From Emiliania huxleyi CCMP1516 (taxonomy: Eukaryota): a stretch of DNA of 57,072 nucleotides. A model generated the notes under the pieces. It had not been told where the DNA came from and made no database searches. It was given only the letters and a program-made list of their open reading frames with translations. The first letter of the stretch is position 1, and every line of letters begins with the position of its first letter. The stretch lies in the NCBI RefSeq assembly GCF_000372725.1, contig NW_005201286.1:292105-349176 (forward strand). Direction: 5' to 3'. Shown here piece by piece: positions 4,037-50,400 of this stretch. The translations under genes and the position numbers were made by a program.

Positions 4037-5476
4037 CTACAGCCCCGGCGCCCACGCCTCGACCTTCTTGGGCAGCAGCTGGTTCGACAGGTCCTCTCCG
4101 TGGCCTAGGCAGCCGTGTTCGCCCTGGCCCCAGGCGAAGACAGCGCCGTCAGCGGTGATGGCGATGCTGTGGTCGATTCCCGCGGACACAGCGACGACGC
4201 GCCGCCCTTCCAGCGTCTCGACCTTCTTCGGCAGTAGCTGGTTCTGCTCGTCGCCGTGGCCCAGCTTGCCAAAGGTTCCCTGGCCCCAGCTCCAGACGGC
4301 GCCGTCGGTGGTGATGGCGAGGCTGTACGCGGTTCCAGCCGACACAGCGACCATGCGCTGGTCAGCCAACGCCTCCACCTTCTTCGGCAGCAGCTGGTCC
4401 TGCCGGTCGCCGTGGCCCAGCTGGCCATCCTCTCCTTCGCCCCAGCTCCAGACGCTGCCGTCGGCGGTGAGTGCGAGGCTGTTGCCGCCTGCAGCGCTGT
4501 GGCCGCCTCCAGCTGACACAGCGACGACGCGGTGGCCGGCAAAGGCCTCGACCTTCTTGGGCAGCAGCTGGATCTGCTGGTCGCCGTGGCCCAGCTGGCC
4601 CCACTCACCAAAGCCCCAGCTCCAGACAGCGCCATCGGCGGTGATTGCGAGGCTGTGGGCTGCTCCAGCCGACACAGCGACGACGCGGTGGCCAGGAAAG
4701 GCCTCGATCTTCTTGGGCAGCAGCTGGTTCTGCTCGTTGCCGTGGCCCAGCGGGCCACAGTCACCAAAGCCCCAGCTCCAGACAGAGCCGTTGGCGGTGA
4801 TGGCGAGACAGTGGTACGTTCCAGCCGACACAGCGACGACGCGCTGGCCAGCAAAGGCCTCGACCTTCTTTGGTTGCCACTGGTGCTGCCAGTCGCCGTG
4901 GCCCAACCGGCCAAAGCCTCCATCGCCCCAGCTCCAGACGGCGCCGTCGGCGGCGAGGGCCAGGCTGTGTTTGCGTCCCGCCGACACGCTCACGGCGCGC
5001 TCGCCGCCCAGGGAGGGGAGGAGGGTCGGCGTGTTGAGCTGCGTCACGCCCTCGCCGTGGCCGAGGAGGCATGGCTGCCCGCTCGCAGCCAAGCCGCACG
5101 ACGAGAGCCGCCCCTCGCCGTCGATGAAGACGCTGTGAGACTGGCCTGCCGCCGCCCTCGCCGGCGGGTTGGCCTCGCGCAGCAGCGCAGCGAAGCACAG
5201 CCACCGCACGGCGCAGTCCTCGCCCGCTGGCTGCGCCGGCAGCTCGAAGCCGCGCTCTTGCGCCCACAAGCGGATGGCCTCTACCGCGAGCGAGGCGTAA
5301 AAGAGCAGCGAGACGGCCGCGACGCGAGCGATGTCGGCGGGGTCGCAGCGAGAGAGGGCGCGCACGAGGAGCTCCGTCGGGAGGTCGAGGAGGCGGGCGG
5401 GCGGCGGCGTGTCTGGCGGGGGCGCGGCGGAGGCGGCGCCGGCGAGGCGGCGCGAGCGGCGCGGTGGGGTGGACAT
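4037..5476 (-). CDS. F-box-like N-terminus plus RCC1-repeat beta-propeller protein (~7 repeats)
   Basis: LLDLPTELLVRALSRC (F-box-like), then repeated VSAGxxHSLAxTADGAVWSWGxGxxGQLGHGD units. Intronless. Confidence 0.92.
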   Translation of the reverse strand: MSTPPRRSRRLAGAASAAPPPDTPPPARLLDLPTELLVRALSRCDPADIARVAAVSLLFYASLAVEAIRLWAQERGFELPAQPAGEDCAVRWLCFAALLREANPPARAAAGQSHSVFIDGEGRLSSCGLAASGQPCLLGHGEGVTQLNTPTLLPSLGGERAVSVSAGRKHSLALAADGAVWSWGDGGFGRLGHGDWQHQWQPKKVEAFAGQRVVAVSAGTYHCLAITANGSVWSWGFGDCGPLGHGNEQNQLLPKKIEAFPGHRVVAVSAGAAHSLAITADGAVWSWGFGEWGQLGHGDQQIQLLPKKVEAFAGHRVVAVSAGGGHSAAGGNSLALTADGSVWSWGEGEDGQLGHGDRQDQLLPKKVEALADQRMVAVSAGTAYSLAITTDGAVWSWGQGTFGKLGHGDEQNQLLPKKVETLEGRRVVAVSAGIDHSIAITADGAVFAWGQGEHGCLGHGEDLSNQLLPKKVEAWAPGL

Positions 5477-5779
5477 CGCGAGAAAAGAATTTCCAGCGTC
5501 CACAAAAGATTTTTCACTGCTTTTTCGTTGTCAGATATAGATATATTATCACGATGCATCCGAAGGGGACCCCAGCGCCGGCATCATCCGTAGAGGCACG
5601 AGTGTTCGAAGAGAGAGTGGACCTGAGCAACGATATGACCTGGAGGCAAATGATCGGAGTGGGAGTCAGAAATGTGGTCCTTGCGCGAGGGGAGCTCGAT
5701 AGACTCGAGGGGCCAGGATACGCCGCGAGGAGGACGGAGTTGCGCCGAAAGGCGAAAGAAAAGCCGCGAGAACAAGGGA

Positions 5780-6270: not shown

Positions 6271-7100
6271 TCACGCGCGCGCGAGACGTGCAGACAGGGT
6301 TGCCAGGTGAGAGCGAATGGCGCGGTTCACGCCTCGCACAACAGAGAGAGAGATGCGCTCTGCATGGTGGGACATAAAAGAGAGCGAGTACTTGGGCGAG
6401 TAGGCCGTGCGGTCGACGCTGCCGCGCGCGACTTTGCGCGCGAGGCGGCGCAGCTTGAGAACGGCGGTGGGCGAGAAGCCGCCGCCGAACGTCTCGTGGA
6501 GCAGCAGGTTGAAGTTGTTGCGCTTGACAAAGATCGCGTCGTGGTAGAAACCGCGATGCGCCTTGACGTAGCCGTGGCCGGTCTTGTGGGAGAAGGGTTG
6601 GCCGGGCTGCCCGCGCGCCTTGCAGCCCATGTTTAGGCGGCGGGCCTTCTCTTCGGTGTTACCAAAGGCGTAGGAGTGGCCAACGGAGGCGGGCGTGCCG
6701 CCACTCGAGGCGTTGCCAACGCCCGGCGAGGAGGTCTTGAGGAGGGGCGTCCAGAGCTTGACTTCATTCACGTCATCGCACCCTCCTGGGCCAGCGTGGG
6801 GTTCCGCGAGGTCGACCTTGTACCCCTCGTTGTACTGCCGGGTGAGCTCTGGTTTCTCCTTGTCGCCGTGCACGACCGGCGCGTTGGCCGGGGCGCGCAT
6901 CGCGTCCGCCCAGGCGGCGAGGACGCCGTCGTGGGGCCGCCGGTGGTGGGCCTTGTTGTAAAGGTAGTCGCCGAAGAAATCGACTGGCATGCCCCGCTCG
7001 AGCGCGACCCGAAGGGTGGGAAGCGCCGCGGAGAGCCAAAGGCCGAGCTTTCGCTGGAGCTCGTCCTGGAGGGTGTCGGAGGAGAGGGCGGTGGCGTACG
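6271..7100 (-). mobile_element. 5'-truncated CRE/SLACS-like non-LTR retrotransposon (restriction-like endonuclease C-terminus only)
   Basis: RPHD...VD...EVK...HETFGGGFS...RISLSVVRG resembles the RHD / PD-(D/E)xK / ETFGG / RISxxxQRG motifs of RLE-type LINE C-termini. No RT domain upstream; the ORF runs into a (TC)n microsatellite at ~7100. An A-rich tail candidate lies at ~6040-6066. Confidence 0.6.
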
Positions 7101-7723
7101 TCTCTCTCTCTCTAGTGCCTAGAGCGACAAGACAGTTGTTGTTGTTTTTACAGTTGTTTGGTATTGCTAAAAATACACACACACAAGACATCGCAGAGGG
7201 CGGTGAAGCGCGGTGGGGGGCCGAAGACGAAGAGAACGAGGCTGAGAGAAACTCCGCGATTTTTTTGTCCGCGAAAGGACACCCCGAAAAAAATCGAACG
7301 GCTCGGAGGACCCCACCGTCGCCCCCTGCGCCTTCCGTCACGTCTTCTTCTTCACAACGTGCCTCCCCGTCTTTGTTAGCTATTGTTGGCAAAACAAGAC
7401 ACAGAGCTCACACAGAATCACTTTGTAGTGGTGTTTGAGCCTCTATGAGAGTTAGGTTAGGTAGGAAGGTGAGAACAGGAGGAGTCTCTCAGTCTCTCAA
7501 CGGCGCAAAGATAAAAAAAAATGGTCAGCACTCCCGCCACTTCGGCTTATCTGTGTTTTCTTTCTTTCTTTCTTTCATAGTACTAGCACGCGCCAGTTCG
7601 CACCTGTGTCGAGTGCTGTGAGAGAGAGTTGTCTTGTTTAAATTCTTTCTTTCGGCGCGAAAGCACGGGCTCAGCATCCCGCGAAAACTTCACCGCGAAG
7701 AATCGTGCGAAAGCATCGCGTCG

Positions 7724-9358
7724 ATGGAGCTGCAGCACCCTTCCGACCTCAGCGCGTACGAGCTCGAGCGGCTCGACAACATCAAGCGCAACGCGGCCGT
7801 GCTTGCCTCGCTTGGCCTGGCCGACGGGAGTGGGCTCGGGAGCTCTCCAAGCGCTCGGCCGATCAAGCGGCGCAAGCCAGCTCAGGTGAGGCCTCTGGCG
7901 GCGCCCGAGCGGCGCAGCTCGCGGCTCGTCGACGGCGCCAAGGCCCCAGACTTTTACATCGCAAACGAGACGGCGAGCGGCAGAGTCACGGTTGGCGGGG
8001 ACGCGAGGGCGCTCCAGCAGGCCACGCAAACCGCCACCGCCGCCGCTGGCGCAGATTCGATGGACCCGCTCACCCTGTTTGGGCTCGGCGCGATGCCCGA
8101 GGGGGAGGACGACCTGCTGGAGAGCGAGCGCGCCGCCTTCGCGAGCCTGCGCGACGCAAAGCGGGCCAAGGCGAGCGAGCTCGGCATCGAGGGCTACAAG
8201 ATCGCACAGCACCGCTCGCTGGCCGAGGTGGTGCGGCGGTGCCCGACGGAGGTCGAGGCACTCCGCGCTTGCTGGGGCTTTGGCGGCTCGGGCGTCCGCG
8301 TCGACAAGTACGGCGCGATGTTTCTGGAGGCGCTGATGCCACACGTCCCGCGGCTCCGGCGGGCCCACGCGGCTGCAAAGGCGGAGTACGAGGCGGCGGA
8401 GGAGGCGAAGGGGTCGGAAGAGGGGGAGGCGGGCGGCGACGGGGCGGAGGGCGGCGGCGGGGAGGCGGGGGAGGGGAGGGGAGGGGCCGACTCGGTGGCG
8501 GCGGCGGCGAGGCCGTTTGGGCAGATGCCCTCGAGCGCGAGCGAGCTGCTTCCGGGCGAGGCTGCCGTGTACGAGGCTTTAATTGGATTTCTTTAATCAA
8601 TTTAATCTTTAATTAATTTAGGCGAGGCTGCCGTGTACGAGGCGCTCATCGCCGCGACGCACGCCAGGGCGGAGGAGCTCGGCGAAGGCTACGTCTGGAG
8701 CATCGCACCGGCGCGGTCCGTGTGCGAGATGGTGCGGCGCGCGCCAGCGAGCATGGAGGAGCTGCGGTCCGTGTGGGGGTTTGGCGGAAAGGGGTTGCGC
8801 GCACAGCGGCATGGCGCGCCGCTCCTCGTGGGACGGCTTGCCCGGCGTGACACGGTTGGCTGAGCGTGAGGGGCAGCGGTAGGCGACTTCCTCCTAACGG
8901 CGCTGGCGCCGCACCTGCCATCGCTCCGGGCGCTGCACTCTGCGGCGGGCGTGGCGGCGGGCGAGGCGGCGGGCGAGGCGGCGGGCGAGGCGGCGGCGCA
9001 TTTGTCGGTCGCCGTCTCCGGCCCGGAGGTCTCGCGCCCTGAGAGGGAGGGCAGCTCCGTGGGGCAGCGCCGCGTGCGCGCGACACCGGAGGCGGCCTCC
9101 GGGCAGCGGGAGAGCAAGTGGCGGCGCGGCAACAAGCACGCGGCGAGCGCTTGGGACGCGGCGTTGTCGGCGATGCAGTCGGTCGACCCGGACGACGGCG
9201 AGGTGGCGGCGGTGGCGGCGGCGGCGGAGGAGGAGGAGGAGGGAGGCGCCCGCAAGGTGAGGGGGCGGGGCACACCGGGCTCAAAGCCCAGAGCGGTTGA
9301 CTGCGATTCGCGGCGGACGACGCGCGCGGCGAGCAAGAAGTGCAAGTCGAGGGTGTGA
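7724..9358 (+). CDS. Tandem HRDC-domain protein; exons 7724-8555, 8622-8813, 8883-9358
   Basis: N-terminal LSAYELERLDNIKRN motif. Two HRDC-like units (AFASLRDAKRAKASELGIEGYKIAQHRSLAEVVRRCPT...GFG...KYG and VYEALIAATHARAEELG...EMVRRAPASMEELRSVWGFG...RHG). GC-AG introns at 8556-8621 and 8814-8882 restore the frame. Confidence 0.78.
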
Positions 9359-10818
9359 CGACGCTCTCGGCGGCGGCGGAAGACCGGAGAGCTGCACGGT
9401 TACGGGGTACGTTCTTTTTGCGAGGCGGTATCGGGTGGATTGGGGTATAGTGTTCGTTGACGGCGCGCGGCGAGGTCTATGCTTGAGCGTGGGAGCCCGG
9501 CGCGGCCGGTGGAAACGCTGAGAAGTATGTTGGCTTTTAGTACATGGGTCACTAATACGGAAAAAAACTCGGACCCACGAAGACAAGGAGCGCGCGCCAA
9601 TGGCCGCCTCCGTGACACTCCCACCTCCTGTGGGCCGGCGCGGGAGTTTTACTGCCGAGTTTCTCCCGGCCGGCCGCCTCCTGACACGCCCACTGACCGA
9701 GCCCATCGAAAAAAATTCGGCGCGCCGCACTGCTCTGACCCCTGCTCGCCCCTGCTCGCCCCTGCTCGCCACTGTCGCCTCGGTTGCCGAGGCTGCCGCG
9801 CACCCGCGCGCTACGCGACTACGAACTGCACCAGCTGGGCTCGAACCAACGACCAAAACGTCCCCGACCCGAACGCTGCACCAACTAGGCCACACCGCAG
9901 GCTCGATATGCAATACGCACAAAACTGGCCGCTCATAAAGCACTACTCATTTGCCGAGGCACGCGGCGCCCCTCCACAGCCAGCCTACCCTCCTATCGCG
10001 CCACTCGAAGCCCCGCGGCCGCCTCTCGCCTACCGCGCTGCCCTCGCCTGCCACCGCACCGCCCGCGCTCCAGCCTAACCAGCTCTGCATCTCGCAACAC
10101 ACACTTGACAGGGACAGACCAGGCGCAGGAAAAGGGAGCGGGGCCCGAATCCAAGGGACCACCCCGTCGGGCGGAGGAGCTGTGAACTCAGGTCCAGCAG
10201 GAAGGCTGCTGGCTCCTGACTCATCCCCCAAATCCCCCACACCTTGGCGGCCTGAAACCTTACCATTCCGACACCTCACACACACCCCTCCCCTAGGGCT
10301 AAGCAGTGCGCGAGCCCACCCGACTTCAGGCGAGACGTTGACCACTCCTTTGGAACAGTTCTGTCAGTGGCTGCACTAGACGCCCACAGAGGCGCGCGGC
10401 GCGGGCAGATGACTAGGGGAGAAAAAGCGGAGAACCTAGCTCGCTGGGAGACGTGCGCAACCTAAAGACGGGAATAGGGGAGAAGTGTCAGTGTGAGGGG
10501 AGGGCGTAGGCTGGCGTTTTTGCCTTTGAAAACTGAACAGTTTTTTTTGGGTCACTAATACGTAATGGAGGTCCCCACATACGGTGGTTACCACCTTGAC
10601 CTTCGTACACAAATCTCAAATGGAAATACTGTCGCGCTTGTGAGGTGTTGAGCTTGAGGTGGCCGCGGCCGCGCGGGATGCAAGCTTCGCCATGCACGCG
10701 CCATGGGAAACGACGTGCATCACTCCCGGGTGCACAAACGCTGCGCACGGCCGCACCGAACGCCCAAAGGACTCGGGCCCGCCCGCTTGTATGTTCCCAC
10801 TGGCTTTCACCTCTCGCA

Positions 10819-11465
10819 TCATTCCATGGCGGAAATTGCTCCCGACGGCGCTGGCTGCGATGCGGCCGCGGTCGCTGGCAACACGCCCGCGGCGGGCTCG
10901 GGCGCAGCAGCCTCGTCGGTCGAGGACGGCAGCGAGCCAGGGGCGAGTGGCGCGGCGGGACTGCCGTCGACGCCTGCGGCGTGCCTGGGCTGGGTGGCTG
11001 GAGCGGGCGCCGCAAATGCAGGCGCAGCCCCCGCATCGCTCGAGCTCTGCCCCGGCTCGGAAGGGCGCGCCTCGCCCGGTTCGGTCCGCTGGCGCTTCGA
11101 CGCCTCCGCCTGCAGGGTGGGGCCGGCCTGTCTGGCGTGAGCGGGGTGCGGGCCAGCCCGGGCGCTTTGCCGGGCGCCGCTCGCGCCTGCGCGTCCTCGG
11201 CCGCGCACCGCTGCAGGTGGCTCTTGAGCGAGTCGGTGAAGCCTCTGAAGCCCAGCGTGTTGAGCACCGCAAGCAGATCCGCCTCAGTCACCGCGTCGCG
11301 GCCCTCGCGCGCCACGCGCTGCCGGGCCTCGCTGACGAGCAGGCTGAGGAACTCGCCGGTACAGACCTGGACCGCCTCGACGGCGTCCTCCGACAGGGCC
11401 GCCCGCGGCTCAGTGCTGATGGTGTGCGCCATGACGTGGCGCACGCCGCGGATGGGAAGAGACAT
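10819..11465 (-). CDS. Histone-fold protein of the NF-YB/Dr1/DPB4 (CBFD_NFYB_HMF) family; exons 11465-11187 and 11109-10819
   Basis: LPIRGVRHVM...LSEDAVEAVQVCTGEFLSLLVSEA...GRDAVTEADLLAVLNTLGF matches the NF-YB-type fold. GC-AG intron 11186-11110. Confidence 0.85.
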
Positions 11466-11659
11466 CGATGGCTCGGCGTTCTTCGAGACTCTTGTATTTT
11501 TTTGCGTTGGAGAGACTCTTTTCCGCATCTCTTGGCTGATTCTGACCTCACTCATCAGAGGGTCCCGGCTGAGCGCTGGGGGAGAGTGAGAGGATGAGAG
11601 TGTGCGCTGTAGAGATCCAAAAAAAGATAGGCTGCAGCGCTGGATGGAGAGCGCTGGAT

Positions 11660-11800
11660 GGAGCGCGCTGTAGAGCTCTACATCCGGCGCGGGACAGACT
11701 GCGTGCGTTGTAGAGCGATGTAGACGGAAGACGCGAATTCACAGTGAATTGACAGTGAATTCACTAAGTAAATCGCGCTCTACATGCGCTCTACAGCGGT
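11660..11800. repeat. Imperfect foldback made of TGTAGAGC/GCTCTACA units around a GAATTCAC/GTGAATT core
   Basis: The left arm tgtagagcgatgtaga...cgcgaatt is complementary to the right arm aaatcgcgctctacatgcgctctaca. Confidence 0.6.
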
Positions 11801-13535: not shown

Positions 13536-13635
13536 NNNNNNNNNNNNNNNNNNNNNNNNNNNNNNNNNNNNNNNNNNNNNNNNNNNNNNNNNNNNNNNNN
13601 NNNNNNNNNNNNNNNNNNNNNNNNNNNNNNNNNNN
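13536..13635. other. Assembly gap (100 N)
   Basis: Run of N. Confidence 1.
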
Positions 13636-26297: not shown

Positions 26298-27362
26298 ATG
26301 CCGACGCCGCAGATTCCCAGCTGTCCAAGCTGGGATTGCTCGGTCCTGGGCCAGGTCTGCACGGAGGGCTCCGGCTACACCTGCTGCGCCGCGGTCCTCC
26401 CTGAGCACGTCGGTGACTGCTCGGGAAGCCTATGTTGGTTTGAAAACAGCGGCCTTCCCTCCGGAGAAGTCTGCTCCGCCTCGCCCGCAGTCCCACCGCC
26501 ATTGTTGCCACAGCTATCGCCGCCGCCACCGCCTGCGCTGCCACCGCCGCCGCCGCCGCTGCTGCCGCCGCTAGCACCAGGGCAGATTCCCAGCTGTCCA
26601 AGCTGGGACTGCTCGGTCTTGGGCCAGGTCTGCACGGAGGGCTCCGGCTACACCTGCTGCGCCGCGGCGAACGTCCCTGAAGACTGCTCGGGAATGTGTT
26701 GGTTTGACAACAGCGGCCTGCCCTCCGGAGAAGTCTGCTCCGCCTCGCCATGCTCAAATCACTGCCAGCTCAATACAACGATCATCATCGTCATGTCGGT
26801 GCTTGGGCTGCTGATCGCTATAGCGGGTATCCTAGTTTGCTTCTACATAGCGAGGAGGCGCAGAAGGCTCAGGCAGGTGGCACCACCCGGCTCGGCAGTG
26901 TCCCAACGCAAGGGCAGCGCCTGCGATGTGTTCGGCAGCTACAAGCAGAATGACGGCACAGACGGATTGCTGTTCAACCTCTTCTACACTCTGGAGATGA
27001 AAGGCATCGACCTCTGGCTCGACAAGAAGCGCGGGAGCGAGCGCAGCGAGGCGGGCATGCGGGCTGGCGTGCGGGCCTGCAAGCTGTTCTGCGCGGTCAT
27101 CTCGCCGAAATACTTTGAGTCAGCCTTCTGCCTTTTGGAGCTACGCACGGCGCTCTCCCACAAGAAGCCGATCGTTGTCTGCTTCAACAGCAGCAAGTTC
27201 ACGGTGCAGCAGGCGATGTCCTGGATCCCGGAGGAGTTCAGGGGGCGGCTGCTGAGCAATGAGGTTGTCGCGCTGCACGAGGACGACGAGTACATGCGGG
27301 TTGGTGTGGAGAAGGTCGCGGCGCAGCTCAGTCTGAGCTCGCCCGAGCAGTCACTCAGTTAA
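26298..27362 (+). CDS. Single-pass receptor-like protein: two Cys-rich repeats, Pro linker, TM and cytoplasmic TIR domain
   Basis: Near-identical repeats at 26309-26485 and 26582-26749 (CPSWDC...C...CC...C...CWF...C). TM IIIVMSVLGLLIAIAGILVCFYIA followed by RRRRR. TIR motifs: DVFGSY, LWLDK, VISPKYFESAFCLLEL, PIVV. Confidence 0.85.
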   Translation: MPTPQIPSCPSWDCSVLGQVCTEGSGYTCCAAVLPEHVGDCSGSLCWFENSGLPSGEVCSASPAVPPPLLPQLSPPPPPALPPPPPPLLPPLAPGQIPSCPSWDCSVLGQVCTEGSGYTCCAAANVPEDCSGMCWFDNSGLPSGEVCSASPCSNHCQLNTTIIIVMSVLGLLIAIAGILVCFYIARRRRRLRQVAPPGSAVSQRKGSACDVFGSYKQNDGTDGLLFNLFYTLEMKGIDLWLDKKRGSERSEAGMRAGVRACKLFCAVISPKYFESAFCLLELRTALSHKKPIVVCFNSSKFTVQQAMSWIPEEFRGRLLSNEVVALHEDDEYMRVGVEKVAAQLSLSSPEQSLS

Positions 27363-29547: not shown

Positions 29548-29668
29548 GGCGCTGCGCTAGGCTCAGAGCGAGTTCGCGCTGCGCTAGGCTCAGACGGCGA
29601 GTTCGCGCTGCGCTAGGCCCAGACGGCGAGTTCGCGCTGCGCTAGGCTCACAGATGCGAGTGCGCTGC
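29548..29668. repeat. Tandem repeat of a ~29-bp unit (gcgctgcgctaggctcagacggcgagttc), ~4 copies
   Basis: Directly visible. It lies in the Helitron 3' subterminal region. Confidence 0.9.
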
Positions 29669-29854: not shown

Positions 29855-32800
29855 TTATGCGGCCTTTCCCGCGACCCGCACAAAGAAGAGGCGCCCTCCG
29901 TCAGCCTCGACCTGCCACCGGCTCGCGTCGACCGACCCGGCCGCGTGCCACACCTCCACAGCCCAGTGCGCCAGCCCGCAGAAGTTGCCCGTCGCCTCCT
30001 CGATGCCCCACCCCGTGGGCCACGCGGCCAAGGCGGTGCCGAGAGGCGGCGGCGGCGCCGCGGTCGCCTCGAGACGCGCCGCGACGGCGTCAAAGGCGAT
30101 CCGCCTCGCGCCCGTCGCGGCCGCCTCGGCCAGCAGCGCCTCCCCGGCCAGCCGCGGGAGGTCGCCCTCCGTCTCGAACCAGCACGACGAGCGGCCGTCG
30201 GCGCACGCCTCGTCCCACGCCTTGAGCTGGCGGACAAAGGCCGCCAAGCTCTTGAGGTGTGCATACTTGCGCTCGGTGTGCGCGCTCGCCATCTTCAGCC
30301 GCGCGTCCTCCCACCGCCGGCTCGCCATGCCGGGCGCGCTGTTGACGTACCTGCGACGGAAGGGGGGGGGGGGGGGAGCTCAAGCGACACGCGTCGCGAG
30401 CCAGGAACACAGAGCCCCGCACGTGATCCGGTCGGCGTCGATCGCCTCGCCCAGCGCCCAGTCCGAGTCCTTCTCGACGCGCGAGAAGAGCGTGTAAATG
30501 AGGCCGAGGAACAGCTTCTCCATCGAGATGTGGTTGGCGACGTGCGCGATCATGAACTCGACGTCCTTGCTGTCGCCGAAGCTCCCCCCCTGGGTCTTGT
30601 GCGCGACCGTCGCGTACCCCGCGCGCAGAGGCACGCCCGTGCGCGTCGCGTGCCTAGATCGTCACTGCACCAAAGTCAGGGCGCGAGCACTCACGGTGAC
30701 GAGCAAAGTCGGGCATCGAATTCACGGGGCTGCGAGTTTTGCCGATGCGGCCAAATGCAGTGTGCGCTCTCGAGTGCTAGTCGGAATGCACGGATCTGTA
30801 TTCTTTATCTAAGGCTGCGTTCCCGGCGCGCTGGCCCGTCGCGCCCGACTCGTCCTTGCTGAAGCTGCGGTTGACTGGAACGGGGACCCACTTCTCGCGG
30901 CCAGCGCCGCGAAAGAAAGCGGGGCCGTCGTAGGCCGGAAAGCTGACGACGGCGGCGACCGGAAAGTGCTGCGGAGGCTGCTCGCCGGGCTTGAAGAGGA
31001 AGGCGACGATCGTCCCCCGCGCGCCGTTGTTGAGCTTGAAGAAGACGCACTGGTTCTTGGTCAACACGGTGGGCGAGCCCACCGCGCCCAGGAAGGTGCG
31101 AGGGATCTGGCCAACCTCCTTATCGGGGCCTTTGGGGGGCTGGCCCTGCGTCTCGGAGGGCACCACACACACGGGGTGTTCCGTCGCCTTGCGATGCTCC
31201 TGCAGCCGCTGCGCGTTCATCTCGTTGGTTGGCGCCCACGTCTCGTAGACGTCGAGGACGCGCTTGCCCGCGGCGGCCTGCCGCTCGGCTGCCGGCAGCC
31301 GGTGCCAGAGGCGCGACATGCACTGCTGCCAGTGCTCCTGCGTCGCCTATGGTATTCGAAGAGGGCCGGTCGGTCCTGAGGGCACGCGCCGTGCTCTGTG
31401 TGACGCCAGCGCTCGCGCGTCGCCTCGCCGCGGCGGATGGCGAGGAGGCGCGCGAGCAGCGCCGCCTGGTCCGGCCCCTGGCGCATGGTCTCGTCGAGCA
31501 CGATCACGTCAAAGCCCTGGCGGCGCAGCTGCCAGCCGCGCTGCGCGATCGGGCCGCGCGACGAGCCCGGCTCGAGGTGCGCGCCGCCACCCTCGGAGGC
31601 GGGCAGCTGCCCGTGGTCGCCGCACAAGTTGGCGGCGGGGACGCCGCCAAACGAAGTCAGCTGGCGGGCGGACGGCGGCAGAGACGAGAGGCACGCCTGG
31701 CCCAGCCGCGCGTCGATCCACGCGATGTCCTCGGACGAGATCATACCGTCCTCGTCCAAGTTGAAGACGCGAGCCGCGCGCCTGCCGCGCTCGCCGGTCA
31801 GCCGCCGCAGCCGGTCCATCGGCTGCGCCCCGAGGGGCGCGTCGTGGACTGTGAAGGTGGCGCGGTGCTTGCGCGGCACCTCGCCGGCCGGCGTGATCGA
31901 GTGCCACGTCCGCCCCCCCGGGTTAAGCACCGCCGCCGACCCTGTGGGGGCGGCGTTGATCACCGCCAGGTTGTCGTTGAAGAGCCGGCGCGCAAAGAGG
32001 GTTACTCCCTACCAGAGAGGTGCGCCGTCCCAGGTCGGCCGAGGTGCGGCCGAGGCGCGGCCGAGGCGCGGCCGAGGCGCGGCCGAGAAGCGGACCTTCA
32101 CGACGAAGGACTTGCCGACGCCGGCCGTCCCAAAGATCTTGAGCCGGCTCTGAATCGGATACTCGTCCTCGTTCTCCGCAAGGCCGCCCTTCGCCTCGGC
32201 CGCACGCTCTCGCTCCCAGGCGTCAAGAAGCGCCTCAAAGTTGATGCTGAGGGCGAGACGCTGCAGCGCGTTGGCGCGGAAGAAGGAGGGCAGACGAGGC
32301 AGCGTCGCGCCCTCGCCCTGGCGGATGAACTCGCCCGCTTTCTCGCGCCCGGCAAGCGAATCAAGAGCCTGCCCGATCCCCGCCACCGCCTCCCAGTCGA
32401 GCACCGGTCCGCCGTCCGCGTTGAGGCACTGGATGCCGTAGTCGTGCCACGAGGTAGCCCACTCGGGAAGCCTGCAGTCCTCCGCATCGATGGTGCCGAG
32501 GTCGCCGTCGTCGGCTGCCGCCTCGAGCCCAGCCTCACCGAGCGCTCGCGCCTGCGCGTCCACCTCCTCCGCAAACCCCTGCCTCCACTCGCCCCTGTCG
32601 TCGCCGTCCGAGTCAGACTCGTTCCAAGCGGCCCCTGCACCGCCGGCGGCGAGGCCGTCGCCAGGCGAGGCGCCGTCGTGACCGCCGCCCGGGCGCGCCC
32701 GCCCGCGGGCAGCCTTCGCCGCCTCGGCCGCCGCCTTGCGCTCTGCACGTCGCCGCGCCCCCTCCACCTCCTCACGCACCATTCGGATGCGGCCGGCGCG

Positions 32801-35800
32801 GGTGGGGTCGGGCGGAAGCCCCTCCGACTCGAACACGGGCCCCGTGAGGACAACGTCGTCCGGCAGGAGGAAGGCCTGCCCCGTCTGCAGGCCCTCGGGC
32901 GGCGCCGCGCCGGCCGCCAGCGGAACCGCCTGCACCGGCCGCCTGCACCGGCCATCCGAGGCGCGCGGGTCGGCCACTTGCTGTACAGCCTCGCCTGGCG
33001 GCGCGTTGGAGGGAGCGCGCAGGCCAGCGTAGGGCTGCGTCGGCGGCAGGCGGCCATACCCCTCCGTGGAGGCGGAGGCCACCGGCGCCTCGTCGCCGCC
33101 CTCGCCGCCGCCCTCGCCGGGCTCGCGAGACCGCAGAGCTGGCGGCGCCGAGGGATCGCCAGCGGCGCCACCGGAGGCCGCCGGCATCGAGGCCGGCGGC
33201 GTCGACGACGGCGCCGGCCCTGAACGTCCCAGAAGCACCTCGTCGGAGTCGCCGCTGCGGCAGAAGCAGCCGTAGAGTCCCGGCGCAATCTCGATCTCGC
33301 GGATGTCCTGCATGACGAGATCGTCGAAGCGGCCGAGCACCAGCCTCGCCTCCATGGGCCACTCCGACGAGCCCCATCTGCGCACAAAGACGCGCAGGGT
33401 GTCCGACGCGAGCTGTCGGGTCTCGCGCCGCTCCTCCTCCGGCTCGCCCGGAGCCTCGAGCGCGACAGCGGCGGCCAGCAGCGTCTCGGCCTTCGCCGCG
33501 CTGAAGCGCTGTCCATTCACTCCATGGAGTGGGAGCAGCGAGATGCCAAAGAGCATCAGGCCGAGGTCGTAGTAGATCGCGACGCCCTCATCTGCGTCGT
33601 CGCAGAGGACTACACGCGGCCAGCGGGGGACCAGCTCGGCCTGCTGGCCCGCCGCTGGGTAGCGGAAGATGAGGTACCCGTCTCTCCTGGCCCGCAGCGC
33701 CGCCACCACGCGGTCCGTCGCCCGCTGGCGCGCGTGCCGCTCCGCGGCGCTGTCGGGGGCGCGACACCGGACCGTGCCGATGTAGCGGCCTCCGCCCGGC
33801 GGTGGCGACGGCAAGCGGGTGGCCGCGGCGAGGTCCGGCGCCGCCGGCGCCTCGAGATCCATCGGCTGGTTGCCGACCTTGGCACGAGGCGCATCGTCGG
33901 TGCCGCGGTCGGCGTCGCCGCCTCCGGTGGCAGCAGCGCTGGAGCCGGCGCCGGCGCCGGTGGCAGCTCCGGCGGTGCCGCGGCCGGGCGGAGGCGGCAG
34001 CGCGTCGACGGCGACGCCAAAGAACTCTCCAAAGGCCTCGCGGAACGAGCTGCAGCCGGACTTGAGGTCGTCAGCCACGAGCCAGTGCCCCGGCGCGTGA
34101 ATCCGTAGCTGGTCCCGGCAGTACTCCTCCTCAAGCGGCCAGCTCGGAAAGCAGAGGTGGCCGGTGAAGACGGGAAAGTGCGAGTGGCCGCAGCCGCACT
34201 TGTCGCCGCAGCGCGAGACCCAGTCGAAGAGCGAGATGTGCGGCGCCTCGGCGCGACGCTCGGGGGAGAGAAAGCGCTGCAGCGGCGTCTTCTTGGCGAG
34301 CGGCGCCTCCTCGTCCGTCGCGTCTCTGTCGAGCATGCGCCACCCGCTGAGGCCGCAGAAGTTGTGGCGGCGCGTGCAGCGGACGAGGGGGATGCCGAGG
34401 AGGATGACGTCGCAGCAGTGCACCGGCCAGTCGACCATCCCGACAGCGCGGCGGAGCAGCGAGCGCGCCAGCGCGCGCACGCTCGAGTTTGCGTCGGCGG
34501 CCTTTGCGAGGTCGGCGTAGACCTTGATCAGATCGTCGGTCGAAGCGGCGCCCTTGCAGCAGTACTCGTTGAGATAGCGGTCGAGCGCCTCGCACTTCTC
34601 CTCGAGGACGAGCTGCGTGTCCGAATTGCCGCCCCAATCTTCGAGCACGCACCGGATGTGCTGGATGAGGAAAGGGTTCGCGCGAGGCCCCGCCACGCGC
34701 GGGTGCTCGGCCGAGCCCTCGAGCCGCGGCTCCGCGTGCAGCTGCTTGCCGGCGCCGCACTTGGCAACCTCGTCAAAGTCGCCGAAATGGAAGCGGCAGG
34801 AGCGCTTGCGGTAGCGCTGCCCCGCGACGCCCGTGCCGCCGTCGCCGTCGTCACGCTTGCGCTTTCCCGCGCCGCGCAGCCGCACCAGCGGGCCGAGGCA
34901 CGTCGGCGTGCAGCGATGATGCGCCACGGTGCGAACGAGCTTGAAGTAGCGGCGCTCGCGCCCGCGCAGCCCGCCGCGCGCCACCTCGCCGAGCACGGTC
35001 GTCTTGAGCGCCAGCTTGGCTGCCGCCGGGTCGTCGTCGCCCGCCTGGAGCAGCGGGGGCGCCAGCGAAACGTAGCCGGGGCTGGGGGGCGAGGGGGTGG
35101 CAGCCGCCGCCGGTGCCGCATTGGGAGCCGAAGGAGTGCCGAGCGGGGCGGCGTCGCCCTCGTCGAGCGGGGGCGCGGGCGGAGGCCTCCCGTGTCGACC
35201 GCCGGCGCCACCGCCCGAGCCGGCGCCGGCGGCGCGGCGTGGCGGGGCGACCGCTGCGGAGCCAGCAGCGGCAGGAGCGAGGCGGTGGCCGGCGGCGCGG
35301 CGTGGCGGGGCGACCGCTGCGGAGCCAGCAGCGGCAGGAGCGAGGCGGTGGCCGGCGGCGCGGCGTGGCGGGGCGACCGCTGCGGAGCCAGCAGCGGCAG
35401 GAGCGAGGCGGTGGGAAAGTGTCGCAGCAGCGCGTGGCACTGTAGCCGATCCCAGCCAGCCCCACGTCGCCAGCCCGGCGTCCGGCAGGCTGGGGATGCC
35501 GCTTACGGGCGTGGTCACTATGCCGAGGAGTCCGGGGCGCTGCTGCCCGAGTTTCTGTGCCATCCCCCCCCCGAGAATGAACTGGCCATCGTCGAGCGAG
35601 GCGTTGCTCCGGTTGGCGCCCCACACGAAAACGTTGTCGGCTGAGGCCTCGCTGGCGTCGAGCCAAGCCGTGAAGCGCACCCGCCGCGGGCCGAAGAGAC
35701 TGCGAAGAGCACGAGCCCGCTCCCCGATGAACGCGACGAGCAGCTCGAGCGCGCCGGCGCCGTGCGCCCCCCACTGCCTCCTGGCGTGATTGCTACCGAG

Positions 35801-42340: not shown

Positions 42341-43416
42341 ATGTCGCTCGCGCATGAACGTACACATATGCGCCACGCCGCCTCGGCCTCCACCGCCGCC
42401 CCCTCGCCAGACACGCCGCCGCCCGCCCGCCTCCTCGACCTCCCCACGGAGCTCCTCCTGCGCGCCCTCTCTCGCTGCGACCCCGCCGACATCGCTCGCG
42501 TCGCGGCTGTCTCGCTGCTCTTCCACGCCTCGCTCGCGGAGCAGGGCATCCGCTTGTGGGCGCAAGAGCGCGGCTACGAGCTTCCGGCGCTGCCAGAGGG
42601 CGAGGGCTGCGCCGTGCGGTGGCTGTGCTATTTGGCGCTGCTGTGCGAGTCCAACCCGCCGGCGAGGGCGGCGGCAGGCTCCTCCTACAGCGTCTTCATC
42701 GACGGCGAGGGGCGGCTCTCGTCGTGCGGCTACGCGCCGCCTTTCTATCCAGGACTACTCGGGCACGGTGAGGGGGTGACGCGGCTCAACACGCCGACCC
42801 GCCTCCCGTCGACGCTGGGCGGTGAGCGCGTCGTGAGCGTGTCGGCGGGAGGATGCCACAGCCTCGCCCTCACCGGCGGCGGTAGCGTCTGGAGCTGGGG
42901 CCATGGAGGGGATGGCGAGCTGGGCCACGGCGACCTGCAGGACCAGTGGCAGCCGACGGAGGTGGAGGCCTTCGCTGAACGGCGCGTCGTCGCTGTCTCG
43001 GCTGGAGCCCGCCACAGCCTCGCCCTCACCGCCGACGGCGCCGTCTGGAGCTGGGGCTGGGGAGCCGGTGGCCAGCTGGGCCTCGGCGACCGGCAAACCC
43101 AGTGGCAGCCCACGAAGCTCGAGGCCTTAGCTGACCAGCGCGTCCTCGTCGTATCGGCAGGACGCGAACACAGCTTCGCCCTCACCGCGGACGGTAGCGT
43201 CTGGAGCTGGGGCATGGGAGCCCAAGGCCGGCTGGGCCACGGCGACCAGGAGCACCAGCTGCTGCCCAAGAAGGTCGAGGCCTTGGCAGGCCAGCGCGTC
43301 ATCGCTGTGTCGGCGGGAGGCGAACACAGCCTCACCCTCACCGCCGACGGAAGTGTCTGGAGCTGGGGCTTTGGAGTCGAAGGCCAGCTGGGCCACGGCG
43401 ACATGCAGAACCAACT
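42341..43416 (+). pseudogene. Truncated paralogue of the F-box-like/RCC1 gene
   Basis: Highly similar to 4037-5476, but homology stops at ...GDMQNQL (43416) after ~5 repeats. The ORF continues through unrelated sequence to 43636. Confidence 0.7.
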
Positions 43417-47451: not shown

Positions 47452-50400
47452 TCAGAGGAGGCGGTACTCGCCCGCGATGACAAAGCACATGCAGTCGACT
47501 TGCATGCCGTCCAGCGCCCGCCGGACCGCCGCGGCGTCCGCCCCGAGCGCCGCCGACGCGGCCGCCAGCTGGGCGAGCGTAGCGCCCCCGCGCTCGCGTA
47601 GCAGCGCCTCCACGTGGGAGCGGAGGGCGGGGTCGGGGTCGGGGAGCCGGCCGGCGGCGTGCGCCGCATCCCGCGGCGGCGGCGGGCGCGGAGACGGAGG
47701 AGCGCCCGACGGCGCGCGCGGAGATGGAGGGTGGCTTGGGTGCCGCAACGTGCGCAGGCGGCCGCGGTAGGCGAGGGAGCAGAGGGCGGCAAGCTCGGCG
47801 AGAAGGCGGCGAGTCTCTGGCAGCTTGCTCTCGCGCTGCAGCTCGTCGGCGTGCGGGCGGAGGTGGGGCGAGCGCTCCGCGGCGTGCGACCTGACGAGAT
47901 GTAGCCGAGATGTAGCCGAGATGTAGCCGAGATGTAGCCAGCCGAGATCTAGCCAGCCGAGATCTAGCCGAGAGACGGCGTGCGGCCTGAGCAGCGCCGC
48001 GCGGCTGCCGAGCACGTTCGCCTCGCAGAAGTGCAGAAGGAGCGCCCCCTGCCGCGCGAAGCGCTCGCTGCCCTTCGGCGGCTCGAAGCGGGTCGCGTGG
48101 CCGAGAGCCGCGTCGCGCACCGAGACGGCCTCGCCGAGCCTGACACGCGGCGGCGGGTCGTGCGCGCCTGAAACAAGGAACGCTTGCGGCTAAGACCGGC
48201 GGGGAGTGGGGGGGGGGGGGGGGGACCAAAGAAAACACGGTCGTAGGTGAGCGCGTCCAGATTCGGCGTGCCGCCCTCGGCCATGAGCTGCTCGTCGCCG
48301 GTCTTGCGGGCATTGCAGCCCACATTTGCGTGCCCGTAGTCATCCCCGAGAATAAGGACAATGTGCGGCTTGCCCTGCCTGTGGCACCGCAGATAACGCC
48401 CAGGCCACCGCCCCCCAAGCGACCAATGNNNNNNNNNNNNNNNNNNNNNNNNNNNNNNNNNNNNNNNNNNNNNNNNNNNNNNNNNNNNNNNNNNNNNNNN
48501 NNNNNNNNNNNNNNNNNNNNNNNNNNNNTACAAGAGGGGGGGGGGGGAGACAAAGAGAAGAGGGGAGGTTGGACGGCGGGTCGTGTGTGCGCGCCGTGCG
48601 TCCAGCGCACGCACAGCACGGCGCCGGTGGCGTCGCCGAGGTAGAGGGAGCGAGAGAGGCGGCCTGAAGAGAGACAGTCCTCGTGCAATTCGGCAGTTCT
48701 GTTTGTGGCGGCCGAGGTAGAGGGAGCGCGAGAGGCGGCCGAAGACGAAAACTACGCCGGGCCGCGCGTGCGGTGTTTCTTTTTGCGGCGGCCGAGCTAG
48801 AGGGACAGAGGCATTCCTGGGCCATCTGGAACGGGCGCCGTCGCGAGCAGCAGCAGCCCCACCGTGTCCACCTCCTCGCCCGCGCCGCGCGCCGCGAGGC
48901 CCGCCAGCGGCGTGAGCCTCCGCACGCGCGCTGCGGCGGCGGCCGAGACCGGCTCCGCCGACTTCATGCGCGCCCAGCTCGCCGATCTCGCTACGAGCTC
49001 GGCCTCGCCGCCCGCGCCGCGCCGCAGCCGTGCGCCGATCACCTTGAAGGCCGCGCCCTCGTCAAACTCGTCCGCCTGCCCCGGCGCGTCGAGCCAGACG
49101 GTCGCCAGACAGACCCTGTCGACCCCTCCGCCGCCTCCGCTCAGGTCGGACACGCGCAAGTTCAGCACCCATGACGCGCGAGGCCGAGCCGCCCACTCCT
49201 CTTCGGCGCCTCCCGCTCCTCCTCCGCCCGCCTCGCCGCCGTCCAAGCTCGCCTGCTCCCTGCGCCAGCTGAGCGCCTCCGCCTGCTCCTGCAGCTTCGA
49301 CTCGTACCCGGCCGCGGTGAGCCAGCCGGCGCCTGAAGATGTACTGGGGAGAGTTGAAGTGGAGCACCGTGAGAGAAGCGGTGCACAGGTAGGGGTACAC
49401 GGACAGCACTGTCATCTGGGGATAGTAGGAGTGGAGGGTGTTCCGGGTAGTCGACTCATGGTAGCGGCGGGATGTGAGGAGCGATGGACACCGGACCTCG
49501 TCCGGCCGCGTCTCCCTCGGGCCGCTCGTACACGCGCAGGCCGTAGCGGCGCTCGACTCGCACGTGGACGCACGGCGCCTGGCCGCCCCCCTCCAGCAGC
49601 GAGCCGAGTGCGACGCGGAAGCCGCACGAGGCCGTCTTGCCCAACTTCGCGTCCCAACTCGCACGCCGCACGCCATTCGCGCTCAGCTTGAGCGCCGGCA
49701 GCGGCAGCGCCGGCGCATCCACGCCGCCGCCCTCCCCCGAGCCAGCTGCGCCGCTTCCTCCCTCGCCTCCGCCGCCTCCTCCTCCTCCTCCGCCTCCGCC
49801 TCCGCCGCCTCCGCCTCCGCCGCCTTCGCCGCCCCCGCCGCCTCGGCCTCCGCCTCCGCCTCCTCCGCCGCCTCCTTCGCCGCCGCCTTCGCCTTCTCCC
49901 TCGGAGATGATCCCGCACCCGCTGAGCCGGAGCTTTGTGCCGACGGCGACCCTCCCCTTCCGGATTTGCCGCAGGAGGTGAGCGTCCGGCGCCTGCGTCG
50001 TGAACGCGCCGACATGAGGGCGGGGAGGCGGTCTTGTGCAGTGTGTTCAGAGCACCGCGTGAGTACAAGGACGAGTGTGCAGTGTGTTCAGAGCACCGCG
50101 TGAGTGTACGAGGAAGGCGAAGACAGCGGACTCCGCTGAATACGGCCGAATACAGCGGAGTCCGTGCCTCCCGCGCGAGTTGCAAGGCATGACTACGTCT
50201 TCCGCTTCTAGCGTCAAGCGCCGCCCACAGGCATCGCCACCCGTCAGTCAGCTCGAGCGCCCCGTCCTCGCACCGCACCGCTGCGACGCAAAGCACCATG
50301 CCGACGCTCGGTGGGTCGGTGCCGTCCTCGATGCGGGAGAGGACCGAGCGGTGGCGCTGCACTCGCTCGCGCCGGTGCCGGTGCGCCAGCTGGCCCACCA

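What the first reader, a model, noticed from the sequence alone, without database searches (positions are those of the whole stretch)
8555..8643. Apparently newborn 66-nt intron: perfect 23-bp exon duplication around an AT-rich insert
GGCGAGGCTGCCGTGTACGAGGC occurs at 8555-8577 and 8621-8643. Between them is a 43-nt, ~85% AT filler made of TTTAAT-like units, in a very GC-rich gene. Splicing GC(8556)..AG(8621) removes the stop and restores HRDC2 exactly. It is the cleanest case of the pattern above; the filler looks like iterative templated synthesis (inference).
Basis: partly seen in the sequence, partly recalled or inferred. Interest (0 to 1): 0.78.

Follow-up and report, generated by a model that had tools for sequence, protein, structure and literature searches.

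The report
Young candidate intron in Emiliania gene
A 66-base insert (a perfect 23-base copy of the neighbouring coding sequence plus 43 AT-rich bases) interrupts a conserved HRDC-domain gene of the alga Emiliania huxleyi in every DNA copy examined, and it is likely cut out of the RNA as a GC-AG intron that was probably born from a DNA-break repair, although no RNA read yet shows the splice.

Summary
GGCGAGGCTGCCGTGTACGAGGC lies at 8555-8577 and 8621-8643 around a 43-nt, 88% A+T filler with an in-frame TAA.

The window is Emiliania huxleyi CCMP1516, gene EMIHUDRAFT_110126, a two-HRDC-domain protein.

The insert is not an artefact. All 4 DNA versions examined carry it unchanged: the window, two run assemblies and a JGI metagenome contig.

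Removing any 66-nt register gives one product. That product is colinear with haptophyte orthologues and scores best against their profile. Three registers are GC..AG and none is GT..AG. GC donors are the majority in this alga (PMC4028052).

Exon 2 is transcribed, correctly spliced at the next 69-nt GC-AG intron, and far less variable than that intron. So the stop-bearing insert is most likely removed from the RNA.

No RNA contig bridges or covers the insert, so splicing is inferred, not shown. "Newborn" is overstated, because I found no insert-free allele.

The origin is unresolved: break repair with duplication, or a mobile element.

The scan noted similar duplication-plus-filler candidates in other genomes, also without RNA proof.

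Verdict: a new member of a known kind, of moderate interest.

The parts
7724..8555 (+). Exon 1 of the HRDC-domain gene (EMIHUDRAFT_110126). It runs from the ATG to the last base before the predicted donor and holds HRDC domain 1 (about 8129-8335).
   Evidence: ORF and Pfam HRDC E 2e-8. Identical to the start of P0019. RNA contigs cover 7652-8392.
8555..8577 (+). Copy 1 of the 23-nt duplication. From 8556 on it is predicted to be intronic and supplies the donor G|GCGAGG.
8556..8621 (+). Predicted 66-nt GC-AG intron (preferred register; 8561-8626 and 8576-8641 give the same mRNA).
   Evidence: Register table. Orthologue colinearity with a 22-codon gap. Best profile score, 504.5 bits. Splicing was not observed.
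8578..8620 (+). 43-nt filler, 88% A+T, with four TTTAAT units. It ends in TTTA, followed by the G of copy 2, which gives the acceptor TTTAG|G.
   Evidence: No other copy in the 57-kb window.
8590..8620 (+). Internal tandem repeat of the filler: 16-nt unit TCTTTAATCAATTTAA, 1.9 copies, 93% match.
8594..8596 (+). In-frame TAA stop that would truncate the protein at 290 aa if the insert stays in the mRNA.
   Evidence: ENA ORFs P0001 and P0021 end here.
8621..8643 (+). Copy 2 of the 23-nt duplication. From 8622 on it is exonic and codes for (G)EAAVYEA.
8622..8814 (+). Exon 2, which holds most of HRDC domain 2.
   Evidence: Pfam HRDC E 0.003, below the gathering score. RNA contigs cover 8621-8812. 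One of 60 amino-acid columns varies among 12 alleles.
8815..8883 (+). Intron 2: 69 nt, GC..AG, 74% G+C. It is spliced in RNA contigs.
   Evidence: Joint 8812->8882 with 4 ambiguous letters in X11 and X13, two runs of one study. 23-codon gap against orthologues. G+C content.
8884..9358 (+). Exon 3: the end of HRDC2 and the C-terminal tail, up to the stop codon.
   Evidence: RNA contigs.

Best explanation
The 66 bases at 8556-8621 are most likely a lineage-specific GC-AG spliceosomal intron of the Emiliania huxleyi HRDC-domain gene, probably created when a repaired DNA break duplicated 23 bp of the exon and took up 43 bp of AT-rich filler.

Shown:
- The duplication and filler exist in all DNA versions examined.
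- Exact removal restores the conserved protein.
- The exons on both sides are transcribed.
- The next intron is spliced.
- Exon 2 is conserved among alleles.

Inferred:
- The spliceosome would use the donor G|GCGAGG, which lies in duplicated copy 1.
- It would use a TTAAT branch-like motif 16-25 nt upstream of the acceptor.
- It would use the first downstream AG (TTTAG|G), formed by the last filler base plus the first base of copy 2.
- One period of the duplication would therefore be removed and the mRNA would be as before the insertion.
- The duplicated target already held AG|GC proto-splice motifs, and this alga accepts GC donors, so the insertion would have been tolerated at once.
- The filler's 16-nt tandem repeat points to slipped or repeated short-template synthesis, during or after the repair.
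For: - **Anatomy.** The 23-nt repeat is exact with sharp edges, the spacer is 88% A+T and it carries an in-frame stop. A repeat this long is not expected by chance: 0 of 100 simulations exceeded 15 nt.
- **Real DNA.** Contigs of runs X1 and X2 hold 8486-8830 in one piece with 1 substitution and no gap. JGI contig L001 is identical over its whole overlap with this stretch, about 8484-8643.
- **Orthologue colinearity.** All 5 full-length haptophyte orthologues laid by tblastn are colinear in one frame. Each has one gap at the insert (22 codons with P0004 and P0007; 21, 7 or 13 with P0002, P0005 and P0006, where the alignment spreads it) and a 23-codon gap at intron 2.
- **Profile score.** Against a profile of 9 orthologues, 66-nt removal scores 504.5 bits. 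The alternatives score 499.1 (60 nt), 491.5 (75 nt), 472.1 (147 nt) and 354.7 (unspliced).
- **Splice ends.** Three of the 24 equivalent registers are GC..AG. GC donors make up 56-65% of E. huxleyi junctions and AG acceptors about 100% (PMC4028052, passages read).
- **Downstream exons are in use.** RNA contigs cover exon 2 and join it to exon 3 across the 69-nt GC-AG intron 2.
- **Selection on exon 2.** Among 12 allelic versions, 1 of 60 exon-2 amino-acid columns varies, against 4 of 15 in the read-through of intron 2 (Fisher p = 0.005).
- **Weak hint.** RNA contigs of X11 and X13 (one study) begin at 8621, or 5 unmatched letters before it, while DNA contigs run on.
- **Composition.** The filler is 12% G+C against 74% for intron 2 and 72% for exon 2. 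That is far from this gene's composition and suggests a young insert.
Against: - No RNA contig bridges 8555/8622, and none covers 8522-8620, in the RNA runs laid: 4, and 2 of those again.
- No spliced, cDNA-type protein of E. huxleyi turned up in 3 database searches.
- The direction of the change (gain) rests on the duplication footprint and on orthologue proteins alone. I had no genomic DNA of a sister species and no insert-free allele.
- A 23-bp flank repeat is longer than the 4-12 bp reported for Daphnia neo-introns (PMC4202315) and the 3-9 bp reported for introner target duplications (PMC9860276).
- The source of the filler is unknown.
- Whether other copies exist in the genome could not be tested, because no genome is held.
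- Intron retention is common in this alga: 89% of 535 inspected introns showed reads throughout (PMC4028052). Part of the transcripts may therefore keep the stop.
Confidence: 0.6

Rival explanations
1. The insert is a small mobile element, and the 23 bp are its target-site duplication. It could be an introner-like non-autonomous element, or the tail of a 5'-truncated retroelement put in by target-primed reverse transcription. It would still be spliced as an intron.
For: The duplication-plus-insert layout is that of a target-site duplication. Introners exist in haptophytes: a Chrysochromulina sp. family of about 70 nt with 4-bp duplications takes one splice site from the target (PMC9860276, passages read). 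On the minus strand the insert is A-rich with ATTAAA-like units. That target-primed insertions can give long, variable duplications is recalled knowledge, not tested here.
Against: The window holds no second copy of the filler. I saw no terminal inverted repeats and no stable fold (z 0.15). The reported introner duplications are 3-9 bp, not 23. The paper's main text does not mention Emiliania (0 occurrences; supplements not read). Similar cases noted by this scan in other genomes have unlike fillers, but those notes are unchecked.
Confidence: 0.17
2. The insert is a fixed disabling insertion that is not spliced. The gene would then make only a 290-aa protein with HRDC1, and HRDC2 would be a decaying remnant.
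For: No RNA contig shows the splice. Gene callers on metagenome contigs end the ORF at the TAA (P0001, P0021). Intron retention with premature stops is common in this alga (PMC4028052).
Against: Exon 2 is intact and nearly invariant at the protein level in 12 versions, while the adjacent intron varies. Exons 2 and 3 are transcribed at depths like exon 1 and are joined in the HRDC2 frame. The 66-nt excision fits the orthologues exactly. Indels in exon 3 between alleles are in frame, for example a 9-nt one.
Confidence: 0.1
3. The region is an intron but is spliced in another register, as in the public gene models. These use GT(8567)..AG(8641), 75 nt, which loses Val-Tyr-Glu, or GT(8495)..AG(8641), 147 nt.
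For: JGI models EMIHUDRAFT_238262 (P0035) and EMIHUDRAFT_110126 (P0019) read ...GEAA|ALIAAT... and ...GGADS|ALIAAT.... Both introns are in frame with GT-AG ends.
Against: Both score lower against the orthologue profile: 491.5 and 472.1 bits against 504.5. Both delete the conserved aromatic residue of the A-[YF]-x-A-L motif. JGI models are known to force GT donors (82% GT against about 37-40% in transcript-based sets; PMC4028052). Both would have to skip two earlier AGs, including the one that follows the AT-rich tract.
Confidence: 0.06
4. The AT-rich insert works as an internal promoter or transcript boundary, so RNA starts at about 8621 and the gene is split into two units.
For: RNA contigs of X11 and X13 begin at or 5 letters before 8621. 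The filler is TATA-like in composition.
Against: Contigs cannot define RNA ends, as the tool's own text says. Both runs come from one study. Depths of exon 1 and exon 2 are similar: 18.7 against 16 and 12.1 against 10.9. The first in-frame ATG after 8621 lies deep inside HRDC2.
Confidence: 0.03
5. The duplication is an assembly or sequencing artefact.
For: The window is a draft with three N gaps.
Against: The same 89 nt occur in two independent run assemblies and in a JGI metagenome contig of another allele. They are also implied by ENA ORFs from further contigs.
Confidence: 0.01

Closest known systems
Neo-introns of Daphnia pulex made by repair of staggered double-strand breaks (PMC4202315; abstract and passages read)
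   Same: An insert of unknown source sits inside a conserved exon. A direct repeat of the adjacent exon's end lies at the far end of the intron. The insert is AT-rich relative to exons and old introns, and it has internal direct repeats.
   Different: The flank repeat here is 23 bp against 4-12 bp. The donor is GC, not GT. I found no presence/absence polymorphism. Splicing is not yet seen. The host is a haptophyte alga.
Introner elements, including the roughly 70-nt Chrysochromulina sp. family (PMC9860276; passages read)
   Same: A short insert with a flank duplication. One splice site comes from the duplicated target and the other is carried by the insert, so the mRNA is left unchanged. Introners occur in haptophytes.
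   Different: Introners are multi-copy families with 3-9-bp duplications and often inverted ends. Here the duplication is 23 bp, there are no inverted ends, and no second copy occurs in 57 kb. Genome-wide copy number could not be tested.
Intron gain by tandem duplication of an exon segment holding AGGT (Rogers 1989; Hellsten et al. 2011; both recalled, not read here)
   Same: Duplicated exon sequence supplies a splice site, and exact removal of one period restores the message.
   Different: Only 22 of the 66 intron bases are duplicated exon and 43 are foreign filler. The motif used is AG|GC, not AG|GT.
Ordinary GC-AG introns of Emiliania huxleyi (Feldmesser et al. 2014, PMC4028052; passages read)
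   Same: GC donor and AG acceptor. Its length is close to that of the verified 69-nt neighbouring intron. It is mis-modelled by GT-biased public gene models.
   Different: It is 12% G+C in the filler against 74% in the neighbouring intron, and it carries a perfect copy of the exon beside it.

Membership tests
U2-type GC-AG spliceosomal intron (E. huxleyi type) | G[C/T] at the 5' end and AG at the 3' end, in a register that keeps the reading frame | tested here: met
   Three of 24 equivalent registers are GC..AG. The preferred one is 8556-8621, with donor cgg|GCGAGG and acceptor TTTAG|g.
U2-type GC-AG spliceosomal intron (E. huxleyi type) | Removal restores a protein colinear with intron-free or spliced orthologues | tested here: met
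   All 5 full-length orthologues laid by tblastn are colinear with a gap at the insert (22 codons with P0004 and P0007). The profile score is best for exact removal, 504.5 bits.
U2-type GC-AG spliceosomal intron (E. huxleyi type) | Branch-point motif at a suitable distance from the acceptor | tested here: inconclusive
   TTAAT occurs at 8593 and 8602, which puts the A 25 and 16 nt before the AG. The YTRAY consensus is recalled, and the E. huxleyi branch consensus was not available.
U2-type GC-AG spliceosomal intron (E. huxleyi type) | Absent from mature mRNA | tested here: inconclusive
   No RNA contig bridges or covers it in the RNA runs laid (4, 2 of them again). Contigs of X11 and X13 start at about 8621.
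Neo-intron from staggered double-strand-break repair (Daphnia type) | [quoted passage not shown] | tested here: met
   Exact 23-nt repeat. This is longer than the published 4-12 bp.
Neo-intron from staggered double-strand-break repair (Daphnia type) | AT-rich relative to flanking exons and established introns | tested here: met
   The filler is 88% A+T. Exon 2 is 72% G+C and intron 2 is 74% G+C.
Neo-intron from staggered double-strand-break repair (Daphnia type) | Derived state: absent in other alleles or in sister species | tested here: inconclusive
   All 4 DNA versions carry it, and 13 further ORFs imply it. Orthologue proteins lack the extra residues, but their gene structures were not available.
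Introner elements | Many similar copies at intron positions across the genome | not testable with these tools
   No genome is held. There are no other copies in the 57-kb window.
Introner elements | Short target-site duplication (3-9 bp) and/or terminal inverted repeats | tested here: not met
   The duplication is 23 bp. No inverted ends are seen in the sequence, and the fold is no better than shuffles. The range comes from PMC9860276.
Tandem-duplication intron (Rogers model) | Intron made wholly of duplicated exon sequence | tested here: not met
   43 of the 66 nt are filler with no match to the flanks.
Known structured RNA families (Rfam) | Match to a covariance model | tested here: not met
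   No match at E up to 1 in 8300-8950 on either strand.

The most novel reading that the evidence does not exclude
Emiliania huxleyi gains introns by a transposon-free route. A break repair duplicates about 20 bp of exon and builds an AT-rich filler by repeated short-template synthesis. The filler supplies the branch site and the AG. Because this alga accepts GC donors, the AG|GC motifs that abound in its GC-rich exons act as ready-made proto-splice sites. GC-donor tolerance would then itself raise the rate at which insertions survive as introns. The similar duplication-plus-filler candidates noted by this scan in other GC-rich marine protists would be products of the same process.
Probability: 0.2. 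Interest if true: 0.75.

Novelty: new member of a known kind. Interest (0 to 1): 0.5.

Why it matters
Where new spliceosomal introns come from is a long-standing question, and few cases keep their birth marks.

This locus keeps all of them: an unmutated 23-bp duplication, a filler with its own 16-nt tandem repeat, and splice signals split between the duplicated exon and the filler. It lies in a globally important alga for which my searches found no reported intron gain of this kind.

The claim is directly testable with one RT-PCR, or by mapping raw RNA reads.

There is also a practical point. Both public gene models of this gene are wrong at this place, because they force GT donors. This is a known weakness of the E. 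huxleyi annotation.

Tried and rejected
**RNA evidence**
- I laid contigs of 4 metatranscriptome runs on 7400-9700, and 2 of them again on 8486-8830. None bridges or covers 8522-8620. This is not evidence for or against splicing.
- The joint '8516->8643' in X12 has 1631 letters between its sides and also occurs in the DNA runs X1 and X2. It is another locus, not a splice.

**Protein searches for a spliced E. huxleyi product**
- The searches used exon 1 at near lengths, exon 2 at near lengths and exon 2 at longer lengths. They found only genomic-type ORFs, the two JGI models and orthologues.
- Cluster listings gave no cDNA-type member. One listing timed out.

**Other searches**
- The whole genome is not held, so copy number of the filler was not tested.
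- The exact 23-mer in JGI metagenome contigs gave one contig, which carries the insert, and no insert-free allele. This search has low power.
- I did not search the filler against viral or organellar sequence. No tool takes it by reference, and I did not type a stretch adjacent to one already typed.
- Templated copying from nearby DNA: the best matches of the filler elsewhere in the window are 8-10 nt and far away.
- RNA structure and known RNA families gave nothing.
- The gene identifiers do not appear in the paper library.
- Searches for introners or intron gain in Emiliania or haptophytes found nothing on this alga. Supplements of PMC9860276 were not read and may list haptophyte genomes.

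**Weak comparison**
- Window against L001: 0 differences in the 66 nt against 3 in intron 2. The numbers are too small to use.

**A second candidate**
- An 11-nt repeat at 7083-7093 and 7195-7205 flanks a 101-nt AT-richer spacer. The repeat holds no AG, so no register has G[TC]..AG ends, and I dropped it.

Full report
**Observation.** The 23-mer GGCGAGGCTGCCGTGTACGAGGC lies at 8555-8577 and again at 8621-8643, and identity stops sharply on both sides. The 43 nt between the copies hold 14 A, 24 T, 2 G and 3 C (88% A+T) and four TTTAAT units. The flanks are 77% G+C. Of all exact direct repeats of 14 nt or more with spacing up to 400 nt in the window, this is the only one with an AT-rich spacer. 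None of 100 first-order Markov simulations gave such a repeat longer than 15 nt. The frame open from 7622 ends at a TAA at 8594-8596 inside the filler, and the same frame reopens at 8606.

**Organism and gene.** The exon-1 translation is identical to the start of EOD36655.1 / XP_005789084.1, EMIHUDRAFT_110126 of Emiliania huxleyi CCMP1516. A second model, EMIHUDRAFT_238262, lies on another scaffold. Pfam finds one HRDC domain in exon 1 (E 2e-8). It finds a second in the frame after the insert (E 0.003, below the gathering score when scanned as this fragment). Orthologues of 42-60% identity occur in other haptophytes, among them Chrysochromulina tobinii.

**The insert is real DNA and is widespread.**
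- Contigs of a marine-metagenome run (X1) and of a run labelled with the organism (X2) hold 8486-8830 in one piece, with one substitution (T>C at 8795) and no gap.
- A JGI metagenome contig (L001) of another allele is identical over its whole overlap with this stretch, about 8484-8643. It differs from the window in intron 2 by two 1-nt insertions and one substitution.
- So all 4 DNA versions examined carry the insert unchanged.
- Two ENA open reading frames from other alleles end in ...GEAAVYEALIGFL-stop, that is, inside the filler. P0001 has 4 amino-acid differences in 290, and P0021 has a 5-residue deletion.
- All 11 gene-caller ORFs that cover exon 2 begin at the GTG at 8633 in copy 2, as expected if a stop lies just upstream. 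These are P0031, P0032 and P0036-P0044.
- The second JGI model reads ...GEAA|ALIAAT..., which also needs an intron here.
- I found no insert-free allele. 'Newborn' in the sense of a polymorphic, strain-specific gain is therefore not supported.
- The perfect duplication sets only a loose age limit. With roughly 23 weakly constrained positions and no difference, divergence is below about 0.13 per site at the 95% level. This is my own estimate, an inference.

**Does it behave as an intron?**
- Removing 66 nt starting anywhere from 8555 to 8578 gives one and the same product.
- All 5 full-length orthologues laid by tblastn align in a single frame. Each has one gap at the insert (22 codons with P0004 and P0007; shorter or spread with P0002, P0005 and P0006) and a 23-codon gap at 8815-8883.
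- Against a profile built from 9 orthologues, exact 66-nt removal gives a 499-aa protein scoring 504.5 bits. A 60-nt GT..AG alternative scores 499.1. The 75-nt intron of model 238262 scores 491.5 and the 147-nt intron of model 110126 scores 472.1. The unspliced, truncated 290-aa protein scores 354.7.
- Three registers have GC..AG ends (8556-8621, 8561-8626, 8576-8641), and none has GT..AG.
- In E. huxleyi, GC donors make up 56-65% of verified junctions and acceptors are essentially always AG. The JGI models are biased to GT: 82% GT in the prose at character 31031, although Table 3 prints the two columns the other way round. The paper used a minimum intron length of 30 (PMC4028052, passages read).
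- I prefer 8556-8621. Its donor cgg|GCGAGG matches the usual donor consensus at -1, +1, +3, +4 and +5 (consensus recalled). Its AG is the first after the AT-rich tract (TTTAG|g). TTAAT motifs place a possible branch A 16 and 25 nt upstream (branch consensus recalled).

**RNA.** Contigs of four metatranscriptome runs from three studies were laid on 7400-9700.
- Exon 1 (7652-8392) and exon 2 (8621-8812) are covered at similar depths: 18.7 and 16 in X11, 12.1 and 10.9 in X13.
- In X11 and X13 (one study), a contig joins 8812 to 8882 with 4 ambiguous letters. That is the 69-nt GC..AG intron 2, at 8815-8883.
- No RNA contig covers 8522-8620, and none joins across the insert.
- The X11 contig begins exactly at 8621. 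The X13 contig begins 5 letters earlier, with letters that do not fit the genome, while the DNA contigs run on. This fits a fork in the assembly graph where a spliced and an unspliced form part, but it is a weak hint from one study.
- The splice is therefore inferred, not shown.

**Selection argument.** Among 12 versions (the window plus 11 ORFs), exon 2 has 1 variable amino-acid column of 60. The read-through of intron 2 has 9 different versions and 4 variable columns of 15, even leaving out one frameshifted version (Fisher p = 0.005). Between the window and L001, the exon-2 difference is synonymous, and the indel in exon 3 is 9 nt, in frame. HRDC2 is therefore kept as coding sequence. That requires the stop-bearing insert to be removed from at least part of the mRNA.

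**Origin.**
- The layout is exon copy, filler, exon copy, with sharp edges. This is the footprint of an insertion that duplicated its target.
- The closest documented process is repair of staggered double-strand breaks with inserted DNA, as described for Daphnia neo-introns. Those are AT-rich, have exon-end repeats of 4-12 bp at the far end of the intron, and often have internal direct repeats (PMC4202315, abstract and passages).
- This case has all three marks, but with a 23-bp repeat.
- A mobile element is the main rival. Introners occur in a haptophyte (Chrysochromulina sp., about 70 nt, 4-bp duplications), and reported introner duplications are 3-9 bp (PMC9860276, passages).
- Against a mobile element, I found no second copy of the filler in 57 kb, no inverted ends, no fold and no Rfam match. 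Genome-wide copy number could not be tested, because no genome is held.
- The filler has no template nearby.
- Its 16-nt tandem repeat, and the CTTTAAT motif that recurs from the very junction with copy 1 (8577-8583, 8591-8597, 8607-8613; read), fit repeated short-template synthesis or later slippage. Which of these it was is open.
- The target 23-mer holds two AGGC motifs, and a third is formed with the last filler base. An insertion here got usable GC-type splice sites at once.

**Public annotation.** Both JGI models mis-handle the place. Model 110126 skips 8495-8641 and model 238262 skips 8567-8641. Model 110126 also skips most of HRDC2, reading ...SVCEM|AAGEAAG.... Model 238262 reads through intron 2 to a stop.

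**Earlier notes of this scan.** Similar exon duplications of 16-27 bp around fillers were noted in other genomes (e1-7379343, e1-9966787, e1-7378211 and others), all without RNA proof. They are unchecked leads. None shares sequence with this insert.

**Verdict.** The intron reading is well supported by indirect evidence but lacks the direct RNA junction. 'Newborn' should read 'young but apparently fixed'. The kind of event is known, and this is a clean new member in a new lineage with an unusually long duplication.

Noticed in passing
window 8495-8641 and 8567-8641: Both public E. huxleyi CCMP1516 gene models of this gene (EMIHUDRAFT_110126 and EMIHUDRAFT_238262) force GT-AG introns here and lose conserved HRDC2 residues. 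Intron 2 is also mis-modelled: one model skips it too widely and the other reads through it.
   Followed up: yes
window 8815-8883; L001: Intron 2 (69 nt, GC-AG, spliced in RNA contigs) is highly polymorphic among alleles. It is 71 nt in L001, and 12 sequences give 9 different read-through versions. The 66-nt insert, by contrast, is invariant in all 4 DNA versions.
   Followed up: partly
window 7083-7205 (minus-strand ORF 6271-7407, no Pfam match): An 11-nt direct repeat (CACCGCCCTCT on the minus strand) flanks a 101-nt AT-richer spacer. The repeat holds no AG, so no register has G[TC]..AG ends. Its nature is unknown.
   Followed up: partly
window 50035-50105: A perfect 30-nt direct repeat that ends in GCGTGAGT (donor-like), with an 11-nt spacer. 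It may be a small tandem duplication at a splice donor.
   Followed up: no
window 35225-35414: Three perfect tandem copies with a 63-nt period (64-nt reference copy) of a GC-rich unit.
   Followed up: no
window 26309-26749: Two copies of a 264-273-nt unit at 96-98% identity, probably a repeated cysteine-rich coding module.
   Followed up: no
window 47892-47979, 32036-32090, 9739-9774, 29549-29654: Short tandem arrays with periods of 10, 11 and 29 nt.
   Followed up: no
window 4037-5530 (-), 42825-43413, 10488-11738 (-): Neighbouring genes. The first is an F-box-like plus seven-repeat RCC1 protein (Pfam E 1e-103). The second is a 156-nt-period repeat region of similar sequence, not scanned against Pfam. 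The third is an NF-YB/histone-fold protein (E 7e-7).
   Followed up: partly
window 13536-13635, 48429-48528, 52333-53143: Runs of N (100, 100 and 811 nt), so the window is a scaffolded draft.
   Followed up: no
L001 558-637: The JGI metagenome contig ends in an 80-nt run of a single base (G on the strand read), where the window has a G-rich GGAGG-type stretch. It is probably a sequencing artefact.
   Followed up: no
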